Source of the DNA: Candidatus Aenigmatarchaeota archaeon
Lineage (GTDB): Archaea; Aenigmatarchaeota; Aenigmatarchaeia; JACPZZ01
Direction of reading: 5' to 3'
DNA: 64,000 nucleotides
Assembly: GCA_043801595.1 (NCBI GenBank)
Contig: JAZDLW010000028.1
Span: 1,336-65,335 of the forward strand
Made by a program: the position numbers and the translations under genes. The first letter of the stretch is position 1; each line of letters starts with the position of its first letter. Positions 6,218-44,473 of the stretch are shown here, in pieces. Under the pieces are notes generated by a model. The model worked only from the letters and a program-made list of their open reading frames with translations, had not been told where the DNA came from and did not search any database.

Positions 6218-6721
6218 ATGAAATTAGAGAAATTTTTGTTAATACCGTTGGTTCTTGTCATTCTTACATGGGGCTATCTTTTTTTCGTGGACCAATTGGT
6301 CGCTGGCCGCATATCCGCCATTGATTCGAGCAATTCCCAGAAGACAGCCGGGGCAGAGATTATCGGTGTAGGAACTGCAATATCTGTGCAGGTCACAAGG
6401 CCTTATATTTTTGGATTATTGCGGTTGCCCGTCTATGCGCCTGTGGTCGGCGACATATCACCGATGCATAGCTTGTTTTTCTTGCTGCTGGTTGCGATAG
6501 CAGTTTTATTAACTGTGATATTGATTATTATAGAAAGGCGGAGTACGAATATGGTAAAAACTCAATTCCCAGGATTGGGCTCAAACTCAAACATTTGGGT
6601 CAGGCTCGGAAAGGCTCTGGGCATAGGCGTATTGTTTGCGTTTGTAGCGTTTATAATTTCCGGCGATGGAGCCAGCCTGCCACTAGGCTTGCTGGTCGCA
6701 TATTTGGAATACAGAAAATAA
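6218..6721 (+). CDS. Hypothetical membrane protein (3-4 TM)
   Basis: 167-aa ORF with several hydrophobic segments; no recognised motif. Confidence 0.65.
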   Translation: MKLEKFLLIPLVLVILTWGYLFFVDQLVAGRISAIDSSNSQKTAGAEIIGVGTAISVQVTRPYIFGLLRLPVYAPVVGDISPMHSLFFLLLVAIAVLLTVILIIIERRSTNMVKTQFPGLGSNSNIWVRLGKALGIGVLFAFVAFIISGDGASLPLGLLVAYLEYRK

Positions 6722-41274: not shown

Positions 41275-42552
41275 CTATAGCAATGCTTTAGCGCCTATGT
41301 CTGTCCTGTATATCATGTCCTCGAAATATATCCCGTCATTTTCTTTTCCTATTGAAGTATATACGATGCTACGTGCATCTCGGATGTTATCAGCTTTTGC
41401 AGTAATGTTAAGTACGCGACCTCTTGTGTTTACGATCCTACCATCAGACAAATGCATTGTACCGGCATGATGGACGATTACGTCGCTCCTGTCCAGACCA
41501 AGTATTTCTTTGTTCAGATAATTTTTGTATTCGTCGCTTGGATAGCCTTTCGTTGCCAGCACGACAGTGACAGCGGATTCTGGCAACCATTTTGGTTTTA
41601 TATTGTTCAGCCTTTTTTCAACGATTCCGTAGCCTACGTCGAGAAGGCTCGATCGCATTAAAACCATCTGTGTTTGTGTTTCCGGATCGCCTCCGCGGCA
41701 GTTGTATTCCAGAACGTACGGCTTTCCGTCTACGATCATCAGGCCGACATATAATATTCCTTTATACAACCTTCCTTCCTGTGCCATTCCGCTTAGTGTA
41801 GGCGTGACTATATTCCGAATCACTGTTTGTTCCATTTCCGTTGTTATGACCGGAGTCCGTGCGCATGTGCCCATTCCGCCCGTGTTCGGGCCTTGGTCAT
41901 TATCGAAAACTTGCTTGTGGTCCTGCGTGTGCGGTAACGGAATAATGTATTCGCCGTCTGTGAAAACGATGAACGATGCTTCCTGTCCTCTTAGGAACCT
42001 TTGCATCAGAGCCTTACCCCCCTTTTTCGCAACCAGCTGGTTTATCGCGTCTTTCAATTCCGTTTTGCTGCGGTAAATCGCTACACCTTTGCCCGCTGCG
42101 AGGCCGTCGGCTTTTATTACGCCTGCTCCATCTGTCTTCAACAGGTAGTTACCAATGTCAATAGCCTGTACGGTAGTATCGGCTACAAGTGATTCCGGAT
42201 GCGGTATGTTGTATTTTTTCATAAAGTCATCGGAAAATATCTTGCTCCACTCCAACTCTGCCGCAGCCCGCGAAGGGCCGACAGTGTGCAGTCCTTCCCT
42301 TTCCAAGGAATCCACGAGCCCCAACGCGACAGGTTCATCTGGCCCGACAAATGTGATGTCTATGCTGTTCTCTTTTGCAAAAGATGTTAGTTCATGTATA
42401 TCTCTGGGTTGTATGTTTACGTTGTGCGCTATCTGCGCTGTGCCCGCATTTCCAGGCGCTACAAAAAGCTCGTCTTTTCCGTATAATTCCTGTTTCAACT
42501 TCCATGCAATCGCATGCTCGCGCCCGCCTTCCCCGACAACGAGAACTTTCAT
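41275..42552 (-). CDS. purD: Phosphoribosylamine--glycine ligase
   Basis: MKVLVVGEGGREHA, APGNAG, VIKADGLAAGKGV, DHK...D.D.GPNTGGMG, VLEYNCR.GDPE, GRVL. Confidence 0.96.
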   Translation of the reverse strand: MKVLVVGEGGREHAIAWKLKQELYGKDELFVAPGNAGTAQIAHNVNIQPRDIHELTSFAKENSIDITFVGPDEPVALGLVDSLEREGLHTVGPSRAAAELEWSKIFSDDFMKKYNIPHPESLVADTTVQAIDIGNYLLKTDGAGVIKADGLAAGKGVAIYRSKTELKDAINQLVAKKGGKALMQRFLRGQEASFIVFTDGEYIIPLPHTQDHKQVFDNDQGPNTGGMGTCARTPVITTEMEQTVIRNIVTPTLSGMAQEGRLYKGILYVGLMIVDGKPYVLEYNCRGGDPETQTQMVLMRSSLLDVGYGIVEKRLNNIKPKWLPESAVTVVLATKGYPSDEYKNYLNKEILGLDRSDVIVHHAGTMHLSDGRIVNTRGRVLNITAKADNIRDARSIVYTSIGKENDGIYFEDMIYRTDIGAKALL

Positions 42553-42652
42553 ACAATCATTTAACCGTTGGTTCGCAAGATTTAAGAGTTGAGTTTTATC
42601 GGAATATCATTAAGCTACTTGTTTAAAGGGAATTTTTTTCAAATCGATTCAT

Positions 42653-43327
42653 ATGAAATTTAGGTCTTTTCCTAAGTTAAACGAAGAATTGGCCGAATTG
42701 ATCGGAGCTTTTATTGGTGATGGCTTTATCGGAAAATATGACGGTCATTATCATGTTGAGTTTGCAGGAAATCAAGAGTTGGACAGATTGTATTTTCAAA
42801 AACTCTGTAAGATAATAAAAACCTATTTCGATGTAAAACCTAGGTTTAAAATTCATGAAGGAGCCTTGAGATTGATAATAACATACAAAGAATTACACGA
42901 TTTCTTCATAAGACTAGGTTTTAATGACGGATTAAAAAACGGCACCGTGTTTATACCTCAAAATTTGTATAAATCCAAATTATTAAAATTTGTGATTGTT
43001 GGCATGTTTGATACTGATGGTTATCTATACGTAGACAAAAGGTCTTTGTATAAGAAACCTTATGCCAGAATAGGATACACCACCAAAAGTAAGAAATTGT
43101 ACGGACAATTAGTAGAACTATTTTTTAATAGAGGCTACAGCCTTTATACAAGGGTAGATAAGCGTTCAGGAGCTTATAATTTAGAGATATATGGGCGTAA
43201 ACAGATATCTAGATGGCTTAAAGAGTTTGGTTTTTCAAATAAAAGAAAGAAAAACTACGCCTCAGTAGCTCAGTCGGTAGAGCGTTACACTGTTCCGGTT
43301 AAGATCCGTGCAGGACGAACTTGGTAA
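42653..43327 (+). CDS. Free-standing double-motif LAGLIDADG homing endonuclease, 3' end overlapping tRNA-Thr
   Basis: LAELIGAFIGDG and FVIVGMFDTDG motifs. Visibly AT-rich. The last 69 nt lie inside the tRNA gene, with the stop TAA in the anticodon loop. Confidence 0.88.
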   Translation: MKFRSFPKLNEELAELIGAFIGDGFIGKYDGHYHVEFAGNQELDRLYFQKLCKIIKTYFDVKPRFKIHEGALRLIITYKELHDFFIRLGFNDGLKNGTVFIPQNLYKSKLLKFVIVGMFDTDGYLYVDKRSLYKKPYARIGYTTKSKKLYGQLVELFFNRGYSLYTRVDKRSGAYNLEIYGRKQISRWLKEFGFSNKRKKNYASVAQSVERYTVPVKIRAGRTW

Positions 43328-43363
43328 GGTAAAGGTTCGCGAGTTCAATTCTCGCCTGAGGCT
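43259..43363 (+). tRNA. tRNA-Thr(GGT) with a 31-nt non-canonical intron at 30/31 (43289-43319)
   Basis: Acceptor GCCTCAG/CTGAGGC; D arm GCTC..GAGC; spliced anticodon arm TTACC-TTGGTAA-GGTAA; T arm GCGAG-TTCAATT-CTCGC. BHB central helix CGTT/GACG with bulges AC|A and AA|C. Confidence 0.9.
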
Positions 43364-43377
43364 ATAGATAAATATTT

Positions 43378-43929
43378 TTACCAGCTATGACTGTATTTTT
43401 CCAGCTGTTTTTTGATCCTTTCTGTTTTTTCCACGCCTGCATTGACGTGTTTTGAAACTGATTTCGAATTTATTCCTGTCTTGTCCAGTTCCATTTTAAC
43501 GTCCTTGATATCGTTTATCAGTCCATCCATCCAGCTTGGCTTTGGCAAGCGATCATGGTAAACCCTATTTTTAATACCTTTTTTTACCTCTCCAGCAGAT
43601 TCAACTTGGTTTCTTATAACCCCGTCTGCGTAATATTCAAGCTGCTGCCCGAAAGTGTCCTCAATCACACGTAAAGCTCTTTGGTAGTCCTTTTTCGCGT
43701 CATTTTTTGCGTTACCGGAAGACGCTGTTTTTTTGAAAGCCCTTTCAGCGGCTTTTTTCATTTTCATGTAATCAGAGCACAAAATACTCAACGAAGGCAG
43801 ATAGCATAACCTGCGATAGATCAGTTCCTCAACTTTCGATGCCGCCTTCTCGCTGGCATTGATTATTTTTTCGTATTCTGAACCGGGTCCCAAGTACACT
43901 TTAAAATTGGCAGTTCGGAGTTTTCGCAT
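43378..43929 (-). CDS. Hypothetical helical protein
   Basis: 183-aa ORF converging on tRNA-Thr; no recognised motif. Confidence 0.6.
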   Translation of the reverse strand: MRKLRTANFKVYLGPGSEYEKIINASEKAASKVEELIYRRLCYLPSLSILCSDYMKMKKAAERAFKKTASSGNAKNDAKKDYQRALRVIEDTFGQQLEYYADGVIRNQVESAGEVKKGIKNRVYHDRLPKPSWMDGLINDIKDVKMELDKTGINSKSVSKHVNAGVEKTERIKKQLEKYSHSW

Positions 43930-44348: not shown

Positions 44349-44473
44349 GGGATCGTGATGTAACCTGGTTTAGCATAGGAGCTTTGGGCAGCCCTTTTGT
44401 GCGCAAAAGCGCTGGCGGAAAACGCAAGGGCTAGAAAGAGCTTCATATGGGTGTTCAAATCACCCCGATCCCA
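44349..44473 (+). tRNA. tRNA-Pro(TGG) with a 50-nt intron at 37/38 (44389-44438)
   Basis: Acceptor GGGATCG/CGATCCC; D stem ATGT/GCAT; anticodon arm GGAGC-TTTGGG|A-GCTTC; T arm GGGTG-TTCAAAT-CACCC; intron stem AGCCCTT/AAGGGCT. Confidence 0.9.

What the first reader, a model, noticed from the sequence alone, without database searches (positions are those of the whole stretch)
42653..43363. LAGLIDADG endonuclease whose reading frame ends inside an intron-bearing tRNA-Thr
The ORF runs through the tRNA 5' exon and the whole 31-nt intron and stops at TAA in the anticodon loop. First, RNase P processing of a shared transcript would remove the stop codon, so making tRNA and making nuclease from one RNA are mutually exclusive. 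Second, a free-standing endonuclease next to a site interrupted by a small intron resembles 'collaborative homing' known from phages, where the intron protects the allele from cleavage. An archaeal BHB-intron version would explain the spread of non-canonical tRNA introns (inference).
Basis: partly seen in the sequence, partly recalled or inferred. Interest (0 to 1): 0.75.

Follow-up and report, generated by a model that had tools for sequence, protein, structure and literature searches.

The report
Homing endonuclease gene abutting intron-bearing tRNA-Thr
A selfish DNA-cutting-enzyme gene sits directly against the threonine tRNA gene of a tiny archaeon and borrows its stop codon from inside that tRNA; related genomes show that the enzyme gene and the small tRNA intron both come and go, and this enzyme type is only ever found beside an intron-bearing copy of the tRNA.

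Summary
ORF 42653-43327 (224 aa) is an intact two-motif LAGLIDADG homing endonuclease. It reads through the first 30 nt of tRNA-Thr(GGU) (43259-43363) and through a 31-nt bulge-helix-bulge intron, then stops at U36-A37-A38.

The overlap is not an error. Every full-length ortholog (50-81% identity, independent assemblies) reads into the same tRNA, and so do two unrelated LAGLIDADG genes at tRNA-Thr(GGU).

In this Aenigmarchaeota genus, the purD-tRNA spacer holds one of four things:
- this gene;
- a decayed copy of it;
- a different LAGLIDADG gene;
- a ~100-200-nt hairpin spacer.

Across the phylum, most of the roughly 30 LAGLIDADG loci inspected abut a tRNA gene, and their clades track tRNA identity (Thr-GGU, Thr-CGU, Phe).

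The anticodon-stem intron is an ordinary spliceable intron found in many lineages without the nuclease. All HE-A orthologs seen with a readable tRNA have it, and both nuclease and intron are incongruent with the flanking purD phylogeny.

This fits collaborative homing, with the intron shielding the target, but does not prove it. More distant relatives sit beside intronless tRNA-Thr genes.

I found no published description of this arrangement.

The parts
41275..42552 (-). purD (phosphoribosylamine-glycine ligase), the conserved left neighbour of the cassette
   Evidence: ORF. GARS domains appear in the syntenic genes of L001 and L008. purD lies divergent upstream of tRNA-Thr(GGU) in all 7 genus members and in L001.
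42622..42627 (+). TTTAAA box 26 nt upstream of the nuclease ATG, a likely archaeal TATA box for a leaderless mRNA (inferred)
   Evidence: Sequence. L001, G235 and G238 have equivalent boxes 25-30 nt before their start codons. No transcription data are available.
42653..43327 (+). LAGLIDADG homing endonuclease ORF (224 aa); folded part is about residues 5-195
   Evidence: AlphaFold2 gives pLDDT 74.9, with residues 196-224 below 50. Foldseek top hits are I-Tsp061I (2dch, E 1.3e-10) and I-DmoI.
42689..42727 (+). LAGLIDADG motif 1 (LAELIGAFIGDGF, catalytic D23)
   Evidence: These columns are nearly invariant in alignment A1.
42980..43024 (+). LAGLIDADG motif 2 (LLKFVIVGMFDTDGY, catalytic D122)
   Evidence: G117, F119, D120, T121, D122 and G123 are invariant in A1.
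43259..43363 (+). tRNA-Thr(GGU) gene with one intron; the only GGU isoacceptor found in the genome
   Evidence: Rfam 51.8 bits. The pattern search finds a single hit in G000.
43259..43288 (+). tRNA 5' exon (positions 1-30), also translated as ASVAQSVERY
43289..43319 (+). 31-nt BHB intron at 30/31 ('type A')
   Evidence: Hand parse and the fold. It is 30/31 identical in G238 and G239. EndA is encoded in the genome.
43320..43363 (+). tRNA 3' exon, with a 6-nt variable loop and discriminator U
43325..43327 (+). TAA stop of the nuclease ORF, which is U36-A37-A38 of the tRNA
43375..43379 (+). T5 run 12 nt after the tRNA, a possible archaeal terminator (inferred)
   Evidence: Sequence.

Best explanation
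Core claim. This is an intact, optional, free-standing LAGLIDADG homing-endonuclease gene ('HE-A'). It belongs to a clade that is specific for tRNA-Thr(GGU) genes. That clade is part of a large Aenigmarchaeota family of nuclease genes lodged directly against tRNA genes.

Shown:
- The cassette (own TATA-like box plus ORF, no stop codon of its own) replaces the short hairpin-containing spacer between purD and the tRNA.
- Its right end is the first base of the tRNA, so translation runs on until the first in-frame stop inside the tRNA gene.
- The resulting tail is variable and disordered. It is a structural by-product inherited with the cassette, not a functional peptide.
- The tRNA intron is a genuine BHB intron, removed by the host splicing endonuclease.

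Inferred:
- The nuclease cuts a nuclease-free tRNA-Thr(GGU) allele in a related cell's DNA. Double-strand-break repair then copies the cassette together with part of the tRNA gene.
- The cut site lies in the highly conserved D-stem/anticodon-stem DNA. An intron at 28-31 splits that site without changing the mature tRNA, so only intron-bearing alleles can carry HE-A. This is collaborative homing, or an intron shield. I give this last step about 40%.

My confidence of 0.7 applies to the core claim: a mobile, tRNA-Thr-targeted, free-standing nuclease gene whose overlap with the tRNA is a by-product.
For: Enzyme.
- It has two LAGLIDADG motifs with both catalytic Asp residues conserved and a Pfam match.
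- The model matches I-Tsp061I and I-DmoI.

Conserved linkage.
- All orthologs sit at the 5' end of tRNA-Thr(GGU) and read into it, in at least three different gene neighbourhoods.

Optional element at one site. purD-tRNA holds:
- HE-A in G000 and L001;
- HE-A with 2 TAG stops in G235;
- an unrelated LAGLIDADG gene (27% identity) in G238, which also reads into the tRNA;
- only a 97-199-nt spacer in G234, G236, G237 and G239.

Decay stages.
- Nonsense codons occur in G235 and G021.
- A ~110-nt insertion with terminal inverted repeats disrupts the gene in G295 and L093.

Incongruence with the flank.
- G235, G238 and G239 have 81-84% identical purD, yet show three different states at the locus.
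- G000 (purD 61-64% to them) shares HE-A at 81% with G235 and intron A at 30/31 nt with G238 and G239.
- G235's intron B is 30/30 identical to that of G236 (purD 66%).

Family-wide pattern.
- 171 of 371 genomes in the phylum carry homologs.
- About 20 of 24 non-orthologous loci have the ORF's 3' end abutting or overlapping a tRNA gene. Several use the tRNA's U8-A9-G10 TAG as their stop.
- In a maximum-likelihood tree the nuclease clades match tRNA identity: Thr-GGU 100/98, Thr-CGU 100/100, Phe 92/85. The labels need 7 changes, against a shuffled mean of 17.6 (0 of 200 shuffles as low).

Intron link.
- HE-positive tRNA-Thr(GGU) alleles are 7/7 (10/10 with assemblies) intron-positive at the anticodon stem.
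- HE-negative alleles are 18 intron-positive and 25 intron-negative. Fisher p = 0.005 and 0.0007, uncorrected for phylogeny.
- G000 holds no uninterrupted copy of the spliced 22-bp core within 5 mismatches.

Host machinery.
- EndA is encoded, and there is an RNase P RNA candidate.
Against: - No cleavage data exist, so the target site is unknown.
- The intron is common without any nuclease, and two different introns pair with HE-A. The association may therefore reflect linkage: the two lie less than 100 bp apart and would be co-converted.
- HE-positive lineages are not phylogenetically independent, so the Fisher test overstates significance.
- Sister-clade nucleases abut intronless tRNA-Thr genes (L020, L099, L030, L032). 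An intron shield is therefore not general.
- HE-A is 81% identical between G000 and G235. That is higher than purD (64%) but equal to the best-conserved neighbour (M48 peptidase fragment, 81%), so recent transfer of the ORF is suggestive only.
- Distant genomes offer no homology upstream of the cassette, so moves between gene neighbourhoods need rare illegitimate events.
Confidence: 0.7

Rival explanations
1. Junction-target model. The nuclease recognises the nuclease-free junction (upstream spacer plus the first bases of the tRNA gene), and inserting its own gene there destroys the site, as in classical homing. The anticodon-stem intron is a bystander that hitch-hikes in the conversion tract.
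For: - The cassette's right boundary is exactly tRNA position 1 in every lineage.
- In many family members the ORF ends within the first 10 nt of the tRNA.
- Several relatives abut intronless tRNAs (L020, L030, L032; L099). For these, only the junction differs between occupied and empty alleles.
- Introns occur widely without the nuclease.
Against: - Upstream spacers are unrelated between families, yet the same clade occupies tRNA-Thr(GGU) in at least three gene neighbourhoods. Half of a ~20-bp site would therefore be unconserved.
- 10 of 10 HE-positive alleles carry the anticodon-stem intron, against 42% of HE-negative alleles.
- Related nucleases also abut the 3' end of the tRNA on the opposite strand (L100, L025, L031). 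This fits a target inside the tRNA better than one specific junction.
Confidence: 0.3
2. RNA-level coupling. The nuclease mRNA and the tRNA are one transcript. RNase P cleavage at tRNA position 1 removes the stop codon, so each precursor yields either tRNA or nuclease. The overlap is then a selected device that keeps nuclease expression low. This is not exclusive of the best explanation.
For: - The hairpin element that precedes 16 of 37 tRNA genes in this genome (random 60-mers 4.9%), and that fills the nuclease-free spacers, is absent here and replaced by the ORF.
- A TATA-like box lies 26 nt upstream of the nuclease ATG, and a T5 run follows the tRNA.
- The genome has an RNase P RNA candidate (63.6 bits, E 7e-18).
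- At least three unrelated LAGLIDADG lineages place their stop inside the tRNA.
Against:
- A CTTAAAG box at -44..-38 inside the ORF (the WLKEFGF codons) could be the tRNA's own promoter.
- Related nuclease genes abut tRNAs convergently, where co-transcription is impossible.
- L032 stops 2 nt before the tRNA, and L024 and L028 stop 25-30 nt before it.
- The RNase P RNA hit is below Rfam's gathering score.
Confidence: 0.25
3. Domesticated or inactive protein. The LAGLIDADG protein no longer homes. It serves the host, for example as a DNA-binding regulator of the tRNA gene or as an RNA chaperone, or it is a dead relic.
For: - LAGLIDADG proteins have been co-opted before: maturases such as bI3 appear among the structural matches, and there is a WhiA-type Pfam match at E 1e-4.
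- The ORF is intact and reasonably conserved (57-81%).
Against: - Distribution is sporadic even within one genus.
- Orthologs are pseudogenised or disrupted by an insertion.
- An unrelated LAGLIDADG gene has replaced it at the same site.
- Both catalytic Asp residues are invariant.
Confidence: 0.07
4. The ORF-tRNA overlap is an assembly or sequencing artefact, and the true stop lies before the tRNA.
For: None found. The genome is a 32-contig MAG.
Against: The same run-on appears in at least 9 independent assemblies and in two unrelated LAGLIDADG genes.
Confidence: 0.01

Closest known systems
Collaborative (trans) homing: free-standing F-CphI plus the ORF-less psbA group I intron of cyanophage S-PM2 (Zeng, Bonocora & Shub 2009, as reviewed in PMC3984707)
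   Same: - A free-standing endonuclease gene lies next to a gene interrupted by an ORF-less intron.
- Nuclease-positive alleles always carry the intron.
- Intron-positive, nuclease-negative alleles and doubly empty alleles both exist in relatives.
   Different: - The intron here is a protein-spliced archaeal BHB intron of 31 nt in a tRNA, not a self-splicing group I intron in a protein gene.
- The host is a cellular archaeon, not a phage.
- The enzyme is LAGLIDADG.
- The target site is untested.
- The nuclease ORF physically overlaps the interrupted gene.
Intronless homing by free-standing phage endonucleases, e.g. T4 SegB in the tRNA gene cluster (from my own knowledge: Brok-Volchanskaya et al. 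2008; pathway described in PMC3984707)
   Same: - An optional nuclease gene sits beside tRNA genes.
- Spread is expected by double-strand break and co-conversion of flanking markers.
- tRNA alleles here are mosaic: the D-loop, intron type and nuclease assort independently.
   Different: - SegB is a GIY-YIG enzyme of a phage.
- No intron is involved there.
- There is no ORF/tRNA overlap.
- SegB has experimental proof, which is lacking here.
I-DmoI / I-Tsp061I: LAGLIDADG endonucleases encoded inside BHB introns of archaeal rRNA genes
   Same: - The fold is the same: a single-chain, two-motif enzyme (Foldseek E 1e-10 to 3e-9).
- Both are archaeal and both are associated with BHB introns.
- One homolog in this phylum does sit in a 23S rRNA gene (L036).
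   Different: - Here the ORF lies outside the intron, upstream of the whole tRNA.
- The intron is only 31 nt and has no ORF.
Introns as protection of archaeal tRNA genes against integrating elements (Randau & Soll 2008, as cited in PMC4090602)
   Same: The idea that an intron breaks a conserved DNA target inside a tRNA gene without changing the mature tRNA.
   Different: That proposal concerned viral and plasmid integrases. Here the candidate attacker is a homing endonuclease encoded next to the protected gene.

Membership tests
LAGLIDADG homing endonuclease (single-chain, two-motif) | Two LAGLIDADG motifs, each ending in a catalytic acidic residue | tested here: met
   Motif 1 is ..IGAFIGDG (D23). 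Motif 2 is ..GMFDTDG (D122). Both are invariant or nearly invariant in A1. Pfam PF14528 matches at E 7e-7.
LAGLIDADG homing endonuclease (single-chain, two-motif) | Tandem alpha-beta-beta-alpha-beta-beta-alpha fold | tested here: met
   The AF2 model has pLDDT 74.9 and the expected order of helices and strands. Foldseek matches 2dch (I-Tsp061I) at E 1.3e-10 and I-DmoI at E 3e-9.
LAGLIDADG homing endonuclease (single-chain, two-motif) | Site-specific double-strand cleavage of a long DNA target | not testable with these tools
   This needs an enzyme assay.
LAGLIDADG homing endonuclease (single-chain, two-motif) | Optional, patchy distribution with decay stages (the homing cycle) | tested here: met
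   Present, pseudogenised, replaced or absent at purD-tRNA within one genus. Stop codons and an insertion disrupt orthologs.
Archaeal BHB (protein-spliced) tRNA intron | Two 3-nt bulges separated by a 4-bp helix, with both splice sites in the bulges | tested here: met
   The motif is CGUU/GACG with bulges AC|A and AA|C (second sequence). The outer exon-side helix is weak (2 bp), so the motif is of the relaxed type.
Archaeal BHB (protein-spliced) tRNA intron | Removal of the intron restores a canonical cloverleaf | tested here: met
   Removal gives the anticodon stem UUACC/GGUAA and the loop UUGGUAA. Rfam matches at full length once the insertion is skipped.
Archaeal BHB (protein-spliced) tRNA intron | The host encodes a splicing endonuclease | tested here: met
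   PF01974 matches at 92.5 bits at C13:32268-32540.
Archaeal BHB (protein-spliced) tRNA intron | Splicing observed in RNA | not testable with these tools
Collaborative homing (free-standing nuclease plus ORF-less intron) | A free-standing nuclease gene lies adjacent to an ORF-less intron in the neighbouring gene | tested here: met
   The ORF starts 606 nt upstream of the tRNA, and the intron is 31 nt.
Collaborative homing (free-standing nuclease plus ORF-less intron) | [quoted passage not shown] | not testable with these tools
   Only indirect evidence: G000 has no uninterrupted copy of the spliced core.
Collaborative homing (free-standing nuclease plus ORF-less intron) | The nuclease never occurs without the intron, while empty alleles exist in relatives | tested here: inconclusive
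   This holds for the HE-A clade and for two unrelated LAGLIDADG genes at tRNA-Thr(GGU): 10/10 against 18/43. It does not hold in the sister clade (L020 and L099 intronless; L098 and L100 with the intron at about 22/23). The test is not corrected for phylogeny.
ORF-bearing BHB intron (I-DmoI type) | The nuclease ORF lies inside the intron | tested here: not met
   The ORF begins outside and upstream of the complete tRNA. The acceptor stem is intact.
Group I intron with homing endonuclease | A group I ribozyme core flanks the ORF | tested here: not met
   The Rfam gathering-score scan of the whole window returns only the tRNA.

The most novel reading that the evidence does not exclude
Non-canonical BHB introns in DPANN tRNA genes are maintained, and moved between species, as shields against a large family of tRNA-gene-specific free-standing LAGLIDADG endonucleases.
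- Each nuclease clade targets one tRNA identity.
- An intron that splits its target lets the allele carry the nuclease.
- Nuclease and intron together drive horizontal replacement of tRNA alleles. This would be an archaeal, protein-spliced version of collaborative homing.
It would supply the missing DNA-level mechanism for the gain and spread of tRNA introns.
Probability: 0.35. Interest if true: 0.85.

Novelty: new variant of a known kind. Interest (0 to 1): 0.68.

Why it matters
How archaeal tRNA genes acquire and exchange introns at non-canonical positions is an acknowledged open question. [quoted passage not shown] - a defined enzyme;
- a defined pair of alleles (with and without the intron);
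- natural empty, occupied, decayed and replaced sites within one genus.

The survey also shows that free-standing homing endonucleases, so far characterised mainly in phages, form a large tRNA-identity-specific family in cellular DPANN archaea. Full-text searches found no description of such a family.

There are practical consequences too. Gene callers will keep annotating these ORFs with junk C-termini, and tRNA finders will keep missing or mis-typing the adjacent multi-intron tRNAs. ARAGORN, for example, called this one Asp.

Tried and rejected
- ARAGORN. Default settings found no tRNA in the window. With -i it folded this gene wrongly as tRNA-Asp with a 12-nt intron. I used Rfam plus hand parsing instead.
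- ORF inside an intron (I-DmoI style). Rejected, because the tRNA is complete downstream of the ORF.
- Group I intron. Rejected, because there is no Rfam hit.
- Sequencing error. Rejected on conservation across assemblies.
- Functional C-terminal peptide. Rejected. The stop lies at the splice junction (L001), in the intron (L006) or in a D-loop intron (L003). AF2 gives pLDDT 27-28 for residues 201-224.
- Recent transfer shown by ORF identity versus flanks. This was only suggestive: 81% against 42-81% for neighbours. The purD matrix combined with intron types was more telling.
- A conserved terminator before the tRNA. The T5 run in the FGFSN codons is not conserved in orthologs.
- Rfam at gathering score misses tRNAs with two or more introns (L003, L004, L007, L029, L022). 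I read these by eye, so tRNA identities are manual.
- My first pass through the genome-search loci assumed they were re-oriented. Loci from minus-strand hits are not, and I corrected this.
- Not used: the search of protein representatives, the second structure job and the genome-contig scan.
Full report
WHAT IS THERE

The window is C24:1336-65335 of an 814-kb, 32-contig, 45% G+C MAG. The closest named homologs of the ORF are from Aenigmarchaeota, a DPANN phylum.

- ORF 42653-43327 (+) encodes 224 aa. It has two LAGLIDADG motifs with catalytic D23 and D122. Pfam PF14528 matches at E 7e-7.
- An AlphaFold2 model built on 12 homologs has pLDDT 74.9 and the expected double alpha-beta-beta-alpha-beta-beta-alpha topology. 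Residues 196-224 fall below pLDDT 50.
- Foldseek ranks I-Tsp061I (2dch, E 1.3e-10), an intein endonuclease domain and I-DmoI first. A profile search of PDB sequences agrees.
- Rfam finds one tRNA in the window, at 43259-43363 (+), 51.8 bits, with a 35-nt insertion in the anticodon arm.

Read by hand, the tRNA is:
- acceptor GCCTCAG/CTGAGGC;
- anticodon stem TTAC-C/GGTAA;
- loop TTGGTAA (anticodon GGT, Thr);
- T arm GCGAG-TTCAATT-CTCGC;
- discriminator U;
- a 31-nt intron between positions 30 and 31 (43289-43319).

The ORF's TAA at 43325-43327 is T36-A37-A38.

The intron forms a bulge-helix-bulge:
- helix CGUU/GACG;
- 5' bulge AC|A;
- inner helix CUGU/GCAG;
- 3' bulge AA|C.

The genome encodes the splicing endonuclease EndA (92.5 bits). 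More than 20 of its tRNA genes carry introns.

THE OVERLAP IS INHERITED, NOT ACCIDENTAL

All full-length homologs at 51-69% identity end in ..KKNYASVAQLVER.. or a variant. That string is the translation of tRNA positions 1-27. Their DNA shows tRNA-Thr(GGU) starting exactly where it does here.

The stop codon falls in different places:
- at the splice junction (L001);
- inside the intron (L006);
- inside an extra D-loop intron (L003);
- further on (L007).

The tail is therefore not a conserved peptide, which fits its very low model confidence.

The partner tRNA carries a varying number of introns:
- one (window, L001, L006, G235);
- two (G166, and G021 = L016);
- three (G296, L007, G295, L093);
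- four (L095).

Two unrelated LAGLIDADG genes also read into tRNA-Thr(GGU):
- in G238, 27% identical to this one, ending at the same TAA;
- in G328.

AN OPTIONAL CASSETTE AT A FIXED SITE

In all seven genomes of the genus, and in L001, purD lies divergently upstream of tRNA-Thr(GGU). The space between them holds:
- HE-A, intact (this window, L001);
- HE-A with two in-frame TAG codons (G235);
- the unrelated LAGLIDADG gene (G238);
- only 97-199 nt of spacer containing a GAAACAG...CTGTTTC hairpin (G234, G236, G237, G239).

Sequences diverge immediately after the shared purD promoter box GGATTTAAGAGTT and rejoin at tRNA position 1.

Elsewhere, HE-A is disrupted by a TGA (G021). In G295 and L093 it is disrupted by a ~110-nt insertion with terminal inverted repeats and a 10-nt direct repeat.

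Together these are the stages of a homing-endonuclease life cycle: invasion, decay and loss.

BOTH NUCLEASE AND INTRON DISAGREE WITH THE FLANKING GENE TREE

purD identities put G235, G238 and G239 close together (81-84%). G000 and G236 are far from them (61-66%). Yet:
- The three close relatives carry three different states: HE-A pseudogene with intron B, the other LAGLIDADG gene with intron A, and an empty site with intron A.
- G000 shares intron A with G238 and G239 (30 of 31 nt), and shares HE-A with G235 (81% aa).
- G235's intron B is 30/30 identical to G236's.
- Downstream flanks are unalignable.

Intron B sits two bases 5' of intron A. Its helix is AGCG/CGCU, and its splice position is ambiguous (28/29 = 29/30).

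This mosaic is what repeated allelic replacement by gene conversion, with end points inside the tRNA gene, would produce. With introns this short, structural constraint cannot be excluded as a partial cause of the identity.

THE WIDER FAMILY

- 171 of 371 genomes of the phylum carry homologs, often several each.
- After correcting strand orientation, about 20 of 24 non-orthologous loci have the ORF's 3' end abutting or overlapping a tRNA gene.
- On the same strand, the stop is often the tRNA's own U8-A9-G10 TAG (L020, L021, L023, L029, L030, L033) or lies deeper in the tRNA (L016, L018, L022, L026, L040).
- Others lie tail-to-tail with the tRNA's 3' end (L025, L031, L035, L041).
- One ORF is followed by a tRNA 3' half, meaning the ORF is inside a tRNA intron (L027).
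- One lies in 23S rRNA (L036).
- A JGI metagenome scan added further cases.

In a maximum-likelihood tree the nucleases fall into clades that match the identity of the adjacent tRNA: Thr-GGU 100/98, Thr-CGU 100/100 and Phe 92/85. Each clade spans several host families. Label clustering is far beyond shuffles, with 7 changes against a mean of 17.6. I assigned tRNA identities by eye.

A nuclease lineage that stays with one tRNA identity across host families and gene neighbourhoods implies that the tRNA gene itself determines where these genes reside.

DOES THE INTRON MATTER?

A pattern search recovered tRNA-Thr(GGU) from 63 genomes, and I classified the alleles.
- With a LAGLIDADG gene directly upstream: 7 of 7 genomes (10 of 10 counting other assemblies) have an intron in the anticodon stem at 28-31.
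- Without one: 18 have it and 25 do not. Fisher p = 0.005 and 0.0007.
- L093 and L095 add two more positive cases.
- Within genus g138, nuclease-positive G295 and G296 have the intron, and nuclease-free G294 lacks it.
- G299 and G301 (same family) have a nuclease-free, intron-free allele. Their downstream gene begins like the MVD gene next to G296/L007, so the context looks the same, but I did not test this by alignment.
- G000 contains no uninterrupted copy of the spliced 22-bp core within 5 mismatches, and its other Thr isoacceptors have unrelated anticodon stems.

These are the predictions of collaborative homing as defined in PMC3984707.

The caveats are serious:
- The lineages are not independent.
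- Nuclease and intron are less than 100 bp apart and would be co-converted anyway.
- The intron is common without the nuclease.
- Two different introns serve the same nuclease clade.
- In the sister clade, nuclease genes abut intronless tRNA-Thr(GGU) (L020, L099) or alleles with an intron at about 22/23 (L098, L100).
- In the Thr-CGU clade, two nuclease genes abut intronless tRNAs (L030, L032).

I therefore give the shield step about 40%.

THE RNASE P ARGUMENT

For it:
- A TTTAAA box lies 26 nt before the ATG.
- The hairpin that precedes 16 of 37 tRNA genes of this genome (4.9% in random 60-mers), and that fills the empty sites, is replaced by the ORF.
- A T5 run follows the tRNA.
- There is an RNase P RNA candidate (63.6 bits, below Rfam's cut-off).
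A shared transcript is therefore plausible.

Against it as the reason for the arrangement:
- Convergent nuclease/tRNA pairs exist.
- A CTTAAAG box inside the WLKEFGF codons could be a tRNA promoter.

COMPARISON AND NOVELTY

- The enzyme is an ordinary member of the single-chain LAGLIDADG family.
- The intron is an ordinary, relaxed BHB intron.
- The arrangement works like intronless or collaborative homing of phage free-standing endonucleases (PMC3984707). It also echoes the proposal that introns protect archaeal tRNA genes from mobile elements (Randau & Soll, cited in PMC4090602).
- It is not an ORF-bearing BHB intron and not a group I intron.

Three full-text searches found no description of tRNA-flanking LAGLIDADG genes in archaea. 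PMC4090602 states that the mechanism of tRNA intron transposition is unknown.

Earlier notes of this scan report similar loci in other genomes. They are unchecked AI notes that I read after forming my interpretation, and I do not count them as evidence.

I classify the finding as a new variant of a known kind, with interest 0.68.

Noticed in passing
Own genome (G000), 60 nt upstream of tRNA genes, e.g. C13 tRNA-Phe, C21 tRNA-Gly, C23 tRNA-Leu; also L072-L074 and L076 spacers: 16 of 37 tRNA genes are preceded by a perfect hairpin of 7 bp or more, against 4.9% of random 60-mers. The hairpin ends mostly about 10 nt before the mature 5' end. Several have the arms GAAACAG...CTGTTTC. The same element fills the nuclease-free purD-tRNA-Thr spacers of congeners. 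Its function is unknown; it could be a leader, promoter or processing element.
   Followed up: partly
L075 (G238:C3) 976-1824: A different LAGLIDADG gene (27% identical) occupies the same purD-tRNA-Thr site and reads into the tRNA to the same TAA. In the tree it groups with a 23S-rRNA-borne homolog (L036, support 98/90). It shares the left junction GTTTATCGGAAC with the HE-A pseudogene allele of G235, which suggests the ORF was replaced within an existing cassette.
   Followed up: partly
L017 (G295:C50) about 340-460; L093/L094 within 1201-1934: The HE-A ortholog is interrupted by a ~110-nt insertion. The insertion has terminal inverted repeats GGCTTTGTGTA/TACACAAAGCC and is flanked by the direct repeat ACCAGAGTAG, so it looks like a MITE.
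   Followed up: no
L027, L107, L109 (downstream of the LAGLIDADG match): The ORF is followed directly by a tRNA 3' half (anticodon loop, T arm, acceptor). The nuclease gene therefore appears to lie inside a tRNA intron in these relatives.
   Followed up: no
window 43333-43338: The tRNA's variable loop is 6 nt (AGGTTC), where all relatives have 5 (AGGTC or AGGTT). This is either a real 1-nt insertion or an assembly slip.
   Followed up: no
window 44349-44473 (+): ARAGORN -i predicts tRNA-Pro(UGG) with a 50-nt intron. Rfam at gathering score does not report it.
   Followed up: no
Own genome C19 c[6366-6533]: ARAGORN -i calls a 'tRNA-Pyl(CUA)' with a 90-nt intron. This is probably a mis-fold of a multi-intron tRNA. 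I mention it only because the G235 nuclease pseudogene is interrupted by TAG codons.
   Followed up: no
Own genome C6:5284-5572 (-): The RNase P RNA candidate scores 63.6 bits (E 7e-18), below Rfam's gathering score of 84. It may be a reduced or divergent RNase P RNA.
   Followed up: no
L010/L011 2885-2971 and 3001-3990: A 329-aa homolog labelled Nanoarchaeota (40% identity) lies immediately downstream of an intron-bearing tRNA. This is the opposite order to the window.
   Followed up: no
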